This document shows positions 30,019 through 30,510 of a DNA stretch of 64,000 nt, piece after piece. Made by a program: the position numbers and the translations under genes. Location: NCBI RefSeq assembly GCF_963921235.1, contig NC_086097.1, forward strand, positions 90,894,001 through 90,958,000. Direction: 5' to 3'. The stretch comes from Mobula hypostoma (taxonomy: Eukaryota). Below the pieces are notes generated by a model. That model saw only the letters and a list, made by a program, of their open reading frames with translations, was not told where the DNA came from and made no database searches. Positions within the stretch are counted from its first letter, which is position 1. Every line of letters begins with the position of its first letter.

Positions 30019-30510
30019 AACCGTCTGGGTAGCCTCCAACCTGATGGCATGAACATCCCGTCTGGGTAGCCTCCAACCTGATGGCATGAACATCGACTTC
30101 TCTACCTTCCGCTAAGGCCCCACCTCCCCCTCGTACCCCATCTGTTACTTATTTTTATGCACACATTCTTTCTCTCACTCTCTTTTTTCTCCCTCTGTCC
30201 CTCTGAATATACTCTTGCCCATCCTCTGGGTCACCCCCCCCCTTGTCTTTCTTCCCGGACCTCCTGTCCCATGATCCTCTCGTATCCCTTTTGCCTATCA
30301 CCTGTCCAGCTCTTGGCTCCATCCCTCCCCCTCCTGTCTTCTCCTATCATTTTGGATCTCCCCCTCCCCCTCCAACTTTCAAATCCCTTACTCGCTCTTC
30401 CTTCAGTTAGTCCTGACGAAGGGTCTCGGCCTGAAACGTCGACTGCACCTCTTCCTACAGATGCTGCTTGGCCTGCTGCGTTCACCAGCAACTTTGATGT
30501 GTGTTGCTTG
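30019..30510 (+). mobile_element. Young Penelope-like 3' fragment
   Basis: C-terminal RLGSLQPDGMNIDFS of the GIY-YIG domain, pyrimidine-rich UTR and terminal repeat. CpGs are retained. Inserted in the right arm of the MITE. Confidence 0.88.
30408..30445 (+). ncRNA. Putative minimal type-I hammerhead ribozyme (Penelope-associated)
   Basis: TAGTC-CTGACGA-AGGGTCTCGGCCT-GAAA-CG-TC-GACTG. Stem I TAGTC/GACTG, core CUGANGA (30413-30419), stem II AGG/CCT, GAAA (30433-30436), palindromic ACGT in place of stem III, GUC cleavage triplet ending at 30440. Confidence 0.75.

What the first reader, a model, noticed from the sequence alone, without database searches (positions are those of the whole stretch)
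30408..30445. Core-intact minimal hammerhead ribozyme in a young Penelope terminal repeat, predicted to cleave as a dimer
Seen: all hammerhead core residues in type-I order. Stem I (TAGTC/GACTG), CUGACGA, a 3-bp stem II (AGG/CCT), GAAA, then only CG before the UC cleavage site, so stem III is reduced to the self-complementary ACGU. It lies just downstream of a Penelope GIY-YIG C-terminus. Established: Penelope-like retroelements carry minimal hammerheads whose palindromic stem III can form between two copies. Inference: this is the self-cleaving RNA-processing module of an abundant elasmobranch Neptune-type family, with cleavage after C30440. The class is known; whether it is described in this family or host I cannot check.
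Basis: partly seen in the sequence, partly recalled or inferred. Interest (0 to 1): 0.7.

Follow-up and report, generated by a model that had tools for sequence, protein, structure and literature searches.

The report
Penelope-fragment minimal hammerhead, known kind
The 38-base motif is a real minimal hammerhead ribozyme signature at the tail of a broken-off piece of a very abundant Penelope-like jumping gene, likely in a ray; such motifs are already described and are predicted to cut RNA only in pairs, so this lone copy is likely inert.

Summary
Observation confirmed, with one correction. All hammerhead core bases lie at 30413-30440 in type-I order, with a 5-bp stem I and an ACGU palindrome in place of helix III; it is the only descriptor match in 64 kb. 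Stem II is better read one base over: unpaired A30420, then GGGU/GCCU closed by a G10.1·U11.1 wobble, not AGG/CCU.

The motif sits in a 492-bp 5'-truncated Penelope fragment (last 18 endonuclease codons, 3' UTR, hammerhead) inserted in a palindromic TA-flanked MITE. The family is very abundant, its closest named relatives are in Mobula and Hypanus, and it has the Neptune/Nematis cysteine linker. The copy is young, about 1% from the majority sequence. Diverged subfamilies stop aligning at the hammerhead's edges, which supports conservation; covariation was not shown.

This is the min-HHR class of Cervera & De la Peña 2014. Cleavage is untested. Published members cleave poorly, and one needs protein and is dispensable for insertion in vitro. 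This copy has no tandem partner. The scan noted the same kind of motif before, in this genome and others. New member of a known kind; low interest.

The parts
29615..30017 (.). Host MITE, left TA, left arm and most of the right arm of a near-palindromic non-autonomous DNA transposon (mariner-like by TA ends and terminal motif; that label is recalled, not tested)
   Evidence: Inverted arms I13 (29615-29690/30510-30585, 93%) and I15 (29701-29770/29944-30013, 90%); self-inverted 29695-30017 at 78%; arm-to-arm alignment; high repeat depth
30018..30020 (+). AAA at the 5' junction; the insertion replaces GTAG predicted from the mirror arm, and no target-site duplication is seen
30021..30057 (+). Exact 37-nt tandem duplicate of the first bases of the truncated Penelope fragment
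   Evidence: identical to 30058-30094
30058..30115 (+). Last 18 codons and stop of the Penelope GIY-YIG endonuclease
   Evidence: 16/18 identity to Mobula hypostoma P0002 aa 352-369; family contigs continue upstream with further endonuclease codons (loose ends at 30058); P0002 and P0004 hit Pfam GIY-YIG
30116..30407 (+). Pyrimidine-rich 3' UTR / pseudo-LTR
   Evidence: tblastn of P0002 aa 353-422 to 30062-30271 at 81%, reading through the UTR
30408..30412 (+). Hammerhead stem I, 5' strand (UAGUC)
30413..30420 (+). Core box C3-A9 (CUGACGA) plus the unpaired extra A typical of PLE min-HHRs
   Evidence: consensus CUGANGAH in PMC4209133 Fig. S3
30421..30432 (+). Stem II, 4 bp GGGU/GCCU (G10.1·U11.1, G-C, G-C, U·G) with CUCG loop
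30433..30440 (+). G12 A13 A14 A15.1, palindromic C15.2 G16.2, U16.1, C17; predicted cut after 30440
30441..30445 (+). Stem I, 3' strand (GACUG)
30446..30512 (+). Rest of the pseudo-LTR; the copy stops before the family's further tail, and GAA at 30510-12 is shared with the MITE (3-nt microhomology)
   Evidence: loose ends behind 30512/30513
30510..30585 (.). Host MITE, right terminal arm and right TA
33716..33753 (+). Nearest other hammerhead-like copy (older subfamily, 3.3 kb downstream, same strand): ACGU-C33748-GACUG intact, but G·G mismatches at the base of stem I and stem II

Best explanation
This is a minimal type-I hammerhead motif in the terminal repeat of a young, 5'-truncated fragment of a very abundant, likely Neptune-type Penelope-like retrotransposon that sits inside a MITE, likely in a ray genome; in tandem or full-length elements the motif likely cuts the RNA after C17 as a strand-swapped pair with protein help, while this lone copy is likely inert. 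Shown: the motif, its register, its place about 295 nt after the endonuclease stop, the nesting in the MITE, the family's abundance, and that diverged subfamilies share the hammerhead block. Inferred from published members: helix III cannot form in one copy (A15.1 and U16.1 are only 2 nt apart). Two copies would pair ACGU with ACGU and swap stem I strands, so each core is built from the CUGANGA/stem II/GAAA half of one copy and the UC-GACUG half of the other. This would trim tandem precursor RNA to unit length. At this locus there is no ORF, no upstream pseudo-LTR and no matching partner, and the monomer is predicted to fold into a closed hairpin that buries G5-G8 against the cleavage site.
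For: Motif and chance test. Match to the published consensus, with G·U at 10.1-11.1 in 8 of 56 published motifs by my hand count. Same-subfamily GIY-YIG protein with CX4CxxC linker; the 30402-30442 bin has the highest summed contig depth in both DNA runs with coverage (X1 11.3 million vs 8-13 in flanks; X5 24.0 million vs 42-72; not a copy number). Loose ends pile up at 30409 (599 contigs X1, 441 X5) and 30445 (435 X5), the hammerhead's edges. Joints 30512->30409, 30499->30413 and 30483->30061 indicate head-to-tail hammerhead units elsewhere. Monomer minimum-energy fold pairs GACG with CGUC. Only 1 of 12 pseudo-LTR ends in the window passes the descriptor; the older ones show CpG-type decay in the core. 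Literature: monomer inactive, dimer and trimer weak (PMC4209133); the anole element cleaves only with its protein (PMC11167929).
Against: No cleavage was tested and no RNA ends could be mapped: no raw RNA reads were offered and table 6 is empty. Covariation in 9 window copies is no better than shuffles (242/500). Fewer high-share variants in the hammerhead than in its flanks (0 of 38 vs 21 of 417) is not significant (p=0.15). The nearest-neighbour model disfavours the active dimer by more than 10 kcal/mol, though it ignores core tertiary contacts. In the anole element, hammerhead mutants did not affect insertion in vitro and no RNA-seq reads ended at the site. 8 of 9 Xenopus dimer elements did not cleave. 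'Inert' is itself untested: the unique right flank has depth 16-25 in a run guessed to be RNA.
Confidence: 0.72

Rival explanations
1. The block is kept in this family mainly as a non-cutting or dispensable structure (a folding or protein-binding element near the reverse-transcription start, or a hitch-hiking ribozyme), so cleavage plays no needed part in transposition.
For: Hammerhead mutants did not change insertion in vitro and no in vivo ends were seen for the anole element. Naiads thrive without canonical hammerheads, and the authors raise the idea that hammerheads parasitise PLEs (PMC8557442 passage). Stem II here is weak, with two wobbles in four pairs.
Against: The exact catalytic boxes, the NUH site and the palindrome are kept together across subfamilies and genera. 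C3/G8 mutants abolish and the double mutant partly restores cleavage in the anole element.
Confidence: 0.18
2. This solo copy does take part in cleavage in cells, either in trans with other family transcripts through the ACGU palindrome, or in cis with the older copy 3.3 kb downstream, where its intact catalytic half would cut after C33748.
For: The core is complete. Family sequence is abundant in a run guessed to be RNA. The 33721 copy is on the same strand with ACGU-C-GACUG intact, and the spacing resembles that of the two repeats of a full-length element (about 3 kb).
Against: No evidence of a + strand transcript over the locus: the left flank has depth 0 in X16 and no host-gene Pfam domain above cut-off was seen among 119 ORFs scanned. 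The best cofold of the two copies is not the hammerhead dimer. Even tandem min-HHRs cleave weakly.
Confidence: 0.07
3. The motif is a chance look-alike in repeat DNA.
For: No Rfam hammerhead hit; folding z-score only -1.24; 12 of 200 shuffled windows give one loose descriptor hit.
Against: It lies where PLE hammerheads are published to lie, matches their consensus in every part, and marks the block shared by diverged subfamilies.
Confidence: 0.02

Closest known systems
Minimal hammerheads (min-HHR) in pseudo-LTRs of metazoan Penelope-like elements (Cervera & De la Peña 2014, PMC4209133)
   Same: CUGANGA-H, G-closed stem II, GAAA, palindromic CG with no helix III, UC site, short stem I, position 3' of the endonuclease, mostly solo truncated copies. 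The Acropora Neptune and Crassostrea rows of Fig. S3 look much alike.
   Different: No chondrichthyan among the 56 motifs listed. Stem II is at the short end (4 bp, two wobbles) and closes with G·U, as in 8 of 56 listed.
Poseidon hammerhead of Anolis carolinensis (Frangieh et al. 2024, PMC11167929)
   Same: Vertebrate PLE pseudo-LTR hammerhead; AT-rich insertion target; optional tail beyond the repeat (this copy stops before the family's tail).
   Different: Poseidon lacks the cysteine linker that this family has. That hammerhead was tested (protein-assisted); this one was not.
Neptune (or Nematis) clade of C-terminal EN+ Penelope-like elements (Craig et al. 2021, PMC8557442)
   Same: C-terminal GIY-YIG with CCHH and a CX2-5CxxC linker in same-family proteins.
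   Different: This copy holds only 18 codons; the clade was assigned through relatives, with no RT tree.
Non-LTR retrozymes (Cervera 2020, PMC7229834; Li et al. preprint 10.64898/2026.07.22.740005)
   Same: Type-I hammerhead derived from a PLE repeat; reported in one chondrichthyan genome with 363-bp mean units; tandem units of this family appear to exist elsewhere.
   Different: This locus is a single unit that still carries endonuclease codons, not a tandem hammerhead array.

Membership tests
PLE minimal hammerhead (min-HHR) | CUGANGA box followed by one unpaired base | tested here: met
   CUGACGA-A at 30413-30420; consensus
PLE minimal hammerhead (min-HHR) | Stem II opened by G10.1 paired with 11.1 (G-C in most, G·U in 8 of 56 published) | tested here: met
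   G30421·U30432. The strict G-C is absent here but is the commonest pair in 9 window copies (5 G-C, 2 G·U, 2 unpaired)
PLE minimal hammerhead (min-HHR) | GAAA, palindromic 15.2-16.2, no helix III, NUH site | tested here: met
   GAAA-CG-UC at 30433-30440
PLE minimal hammerhead (min-HHR) | Short stem I flanking the core | tested here: met
   5 bp
PLE minimal hammerhead (min-HHR) | Located in the pseudo-LTR of a Penelope-like element | tested here: met
PLE minimal hammerhead (min-HHR) | Compensatory changes across consensus families | tested here: inconclusive
   One-sided compatible changes (U·G/U-A, C-G/U·G, G-C/G·U), but covariation not above shuffles in 9 decayed copies; no genome held
PLE minimal hammerhead (min-HHR) | Self-cleavage as a dimer | not testable with these tools
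   Needs in vitro assay; the dimer topology can be drawn but is disfavoured in the nearest-neighbour model
Neptune clade PLE | C-terminal GIY-YIG endonuclease with CCHH motif | tested here: met
   In same-subfamily P0002 and in P0004: Pfam GIY-YIG (P0002 just under the cut-off, P0004 above); CxxC and two His read by eye
Neptune clade PLE | CX2-5CxxC linker between RT and EN (excludes Penelope/Poseidon) | tested here: met
   CX4CxxC in P0002, P0004, P0010 and the older window copy near 20480; definition
Neptune clade PLE | RT phylogeny placing it with Neptune rather than Nematis | not tested
   No reference Neptune or Nematis RT set was available
Non-LTR retrozyme | Two or more tandem units each with a hammerhead | tested here: not met
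   One unit only; the next copy is 3.3 kb away and belongs to another insertion
Canonical type-I hammerhead (Rfam models) | Helix III and loop-loop contacts; Rfam score | tested here: not met
   No helix III possible in one copy; no Rfam hammerhead hit at E<=10

The most novel reading that the evidence does not exclude
Because this ray family has a vast number of young, core-complete solo hammerheads that share one ACGU palindrome, unrelated insertions pair up (in cis on long read-through RNAs, or in trans between transcripts) and act as a distributed, dose-dependent cleavage system on host RNA. At this locus the intact catalytic half at 30413 would cut the older copy 3.3 kb downstream, after C33748.
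Probability: 0.04. Interest if true: 0.7.

Novelty: new member of a known kind. Interest (0 to 1): 0.14.

Why it matters
As a locus it matters little: one of a very large number of truncated Penelope ends. The class and the dimer model date from 2014. What is modestly useful is the family. Batoid genomes seem to hold a young, very high-copy Neptune-type family whose hammerhead I did not find described in print. It appears to include a subfamily with G10.1·U11.1 and short head-to-tail hammerhead units. That makes it handy material for the open question of what PLE hammerheads do in vivo, but this copy does not make the question newly testable.

Tried and rejected
No whole genome is held, so the genome-wide consensus and covariation test could not be run. 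Pattern scans for family copies found nothing: viral contigs 0, metagenome contigs 0 twice, genome contigs 0. Rfam: 3 chance matches, no hammerhead. Two protein-space searches with the + strand frame across the hammerhead found nothing; the - strand frame found 3 proteins.

My first idea, that U11.1 is a private CpG decay that kills this copy, was dropped. A separate Mobula copy has Arg at the codon that covers it (P0011; Arg fits T or G there), and 30432 is not among the 40 variant rows shown, all of which reach about 42% or more in some run. That last point rests on my inference about how rows are ranked: 70 rows are hidden and X1 and X5 overflowed. Recurrent CpG change remains possible.

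Run X21 (raw DNA reads) laid only 4 reads and is uninformative; X16 is only guessed to be RNA and, as contigs, cannot show ends or strand. Retrozyme membership of this locus and chance origin were rejected. The cofold of this copy with the 33721 copy gave no hammerhead-like optimum. Lünse et al. (PMC5785218) is not held; PMC5785225 was a wrong id and is unrelated. Two elasmobranch genome preprints contain none of the searched terms. Sequence and place look-ups in earlier findings returned nothing.

Full report
1. Observation. A relaxed descriptor (stem I and II of 3 bp or more, both boxes, NUH within 0-6 nt) finds this one site on both strands of the 64-kb window. In 200 dinucleotide shuffles the mean is 0.06 and 12 of 200 have a hit; a strict form fitted to this site gives 0 of 200. 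A simpler pattern gives 2 hits against 0.03 expected. Rfam has no hammerhead match at E<=10.

2. Register of stem II. The published consensus for PLE minimal hammerheads is CUGANGA-H, G...C, GAAA, palindrome, NUH (PMC4209133 Fig. S3 text). By my hand count of the 56 rows, 54 have the extra base, 51 open stem II with G, 8 close it with G·U, and 1 has A-U directly after CUGANGA. Read this way, A30420 is unpaired and stem II is GGGU/GCCU with loop CUCG. This register is more stable (-7.0 vs -5.6 kcal/mol for the whole motif) and is the one ViennaRNA picks.

U11.1 does not look private to this copy. Predicted proteins that read through the motif on the - strand show Arg at that codon in one Mobula copy that matches ours across the hammerhead, and Gly (C11.1) in three in-frame copies from Mobula birostris and Hypanus. 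Position 30432 is also absent from the 40 variant rows shown, each of which reaches about 42% or more in some run. 70 rows are hidden and the ranking rule is my inference.

3. What carries it. The motif lies in a 492-bp insert (30021-30512): a 37-nt exact duplication of its 5' end, the last 18 codons of a GIY-YIG endonuclease, a pyrimidine-rich UTR, the hammerhead and 67 more bases. A Mobula hypostoma predicted protein (P0002) matches 30062-30271 at 81% over 70 codons, through the stop into the UTR, so it belongs to the same subfamily. P0002 and P0004 hit Pfam GIY-YIG and carry a CX4CxxC linker and the CCHH residues (read by eye). By PMC8557442 (passages) that linker marks Neptune and Nematis and excludes Penelope/Poseidon; I built no RT tree. 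The search that found them used an older window copy (20072-20461) and returned 10 proteins: 5 Hypanus, 2 Mobula, 1 Rhincodon, 2 without species names. The host is therefore likely a myliobatiform ray.

The mirror arm predicts the empty site: 4 bases are replaced, there is no target-site duplication, and GAA is shared at the 3' junction. 'Mariner-like' is my recalled label. Family contigs continue beyond both ends of the insert, so it is 5'-truncated and lacks the family's tail. No ORF, upstream repeat or adjacent second hammerhead is present. Pfam matches above cut-off among 119 of 123 ORFs of 85 aa or more were all retroelement-type (RT, endonuclease, zf-RVT, RNase H-like, hAT, and ALKBH8_N, which I take from recall to be a LINE-derived match); small host exons would have been missed.

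4. Abundance, age, conservation (4 runs laid at 82% likeness, 3 informative). Summed contig depth in the hammerhead bin is 11.3 million in X1 and 24.0 million in X5, against 8-13 and 42-72 in the unique flanks. The tool warns that this is no copy number, but it shows a very large family. Within 30058-30512 the window's letter is the minority in all three runs at 4 shown places (30105, 30116, 30183, 30468), about 1%; in the MITE it is so at 11 places in about 480 nt. This fits a young copy inserted into an older MITE. Many rows reflect subfamily mixture, so this is rough.

Loose ends pile up before 30409 (599 contigs in X1, 441 in X5) and behind 30445 (435 in X5): diverged subfamilies align over the hammerhead and stop at its edges (20 loose-end rows shown, 2224 hidden). 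Against this, 0 of 38 hammerhead places versus 21 of 417 others carry a high-share variant, which is not significant (p=0.15). Of 12 pseudo-LTR ends found in the window, only this one passes the descriptor; the others show CG-to-CA or TG changes at 11.1/12 and 15.2/16.2, as expected of neutral decay. Joints 30512->30409 (X5, depth 310), 30499->30413 (X1, 81) and 30483->30061 (X16, 274) point to head-to-tail hammerhead units elsewhere in these genomes. No RNA ends could be examined.

5. Mechanism. One copy cannot close helix III. The monomer's best fold pairs GACG (G5-G8) with CGUC (15.2-17), a closed hairpin at -11.0 kcal/mol. Two copies can be drawn as a nested strand-swapped dimer with a 4-bp ACGU/ACGU helix, but its nearest-neighbour energy is -11.5 against -22.0 for two monomers and -30.3 for the best inactive duplex (tertiary contacts are not modelled). 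This agrees with the literature. In PMC4209133 (main text parts 1-2 of 4, supplement parts 1-2 of 3) monomers were inactive and dimers weak. In PMC11167929 (parts 1-2 of 4) the anole hammerhead cut only with protein, was not needed for insertion in vitro, and left no RNA-seq ends. In the 2026 preprint (parts 1-3 of 5, supplements closed) 1 of 9 Xenopus dimers cleaved. I commit to a family-level, protein-assisted dimer cleavage that trims tandem RNA, with this solo copy inert (0.72). Rivals: dispensable or non-cutting structure (0.18), active solo copy in trans or with the 33721 copy (0.07), chance (0.02).

6. Comparison and novelty. It works like, and by every feature testable here is, a PLE min-HHR. 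It is not a retrozyme locus or a canonical type-I hammerhead. No chondrichthyan is among the 56 motifs of the 2014 paper, but the 2026 preprint reports hammerhead tandem repeats in one chondrichthyan (species not named in the text I read). Six literature searches and term look-ups in two elasmobranch genome preprints turned up no description in rays. Lünse et al. (title only, from a reference list), Repbase and Dfam could not be seen. Passages only were read from PMC6765202, PMC6155905, PMC7229834 and PMC2837043. Earlier notes of this scan report the same kind of motif twice in this genome and in other genomes; these are unchecked and were seen after my reading was set.

7. Verdict. Real feature, correctly recognised, with the stem II register corrected and the nested, solo context added. 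New member of a known kind; interest 0.14.

Noticed in passing
window 29615-30585: Near-palindromic TA-flanked MITE with internal partial copies of its terminal repeat (29784-29815, 29893-29927); a high-copy family. Its right junction appears also in organism B (a unique flank contig running 26 nt into the repeat; under the tool's 31-nt bridging rule), whose flanks differ at 5 of 256 bases.
   Followed up: partly
table 5c, joints 30512->30409, 30499->30413, 30483->30061: Head-to-tail units of about 90, 110 and 460 nt that each contain the hammerhead; possible retrozyme-like arrays born from this family's terminal repeat. Hypanus protein P0012 also reads through several tandem hammerhead units.
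   Followed up: no
P0011, P0013 (relatives of window 30403-30513, - strand): Predicted ray isoforms (Tim8A X3, TNFRSF5-like X2) end in an exon made from the antisense strand of the hammerhead region; antisense exonisation of this repeat may be recurrent. Gene models only.
   Followed up: no
window 30021-30094: Exact 37-nt tandem duplication at the 5' truncation point, preceded by AAA; looks like template re-engagement at the end of reverse transcription.
   Followed up: partly
window 20070-21230 and 33097-33830: Two older, broken Penelope copies of the same family with RT thumb, endonuclease and decayed hammerhead (the cysteine linker is seen in the first); the second ends in a (GT)n microsatellite.
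   Followed up: partly
window 4412-8249 (-): LINE-type ORF2 with endonuclease, RT and zf-RVT domains in three long ORFs, fairly well preserved.
   Followed up: no
window 25801-27925 (-): hAT transposase remnant (Dimer_Tnp_hAT at the C-terminus) in several frames.
   Followed up: no
window 54621-54716: Perfect 43-nt inverted repeat with a 10-nt spacer.
   Followed up: no
window 46855-47046: 48-nt tandem repeat (about four units) inside a LINE RT remnant.
   Followed up: no
window 30607-30688: Unique right flank has depth 16-25 in run X16 (guessed RNA) while the left flank has none; transcription or DNA carry-over not resolved.
   Followed up: no
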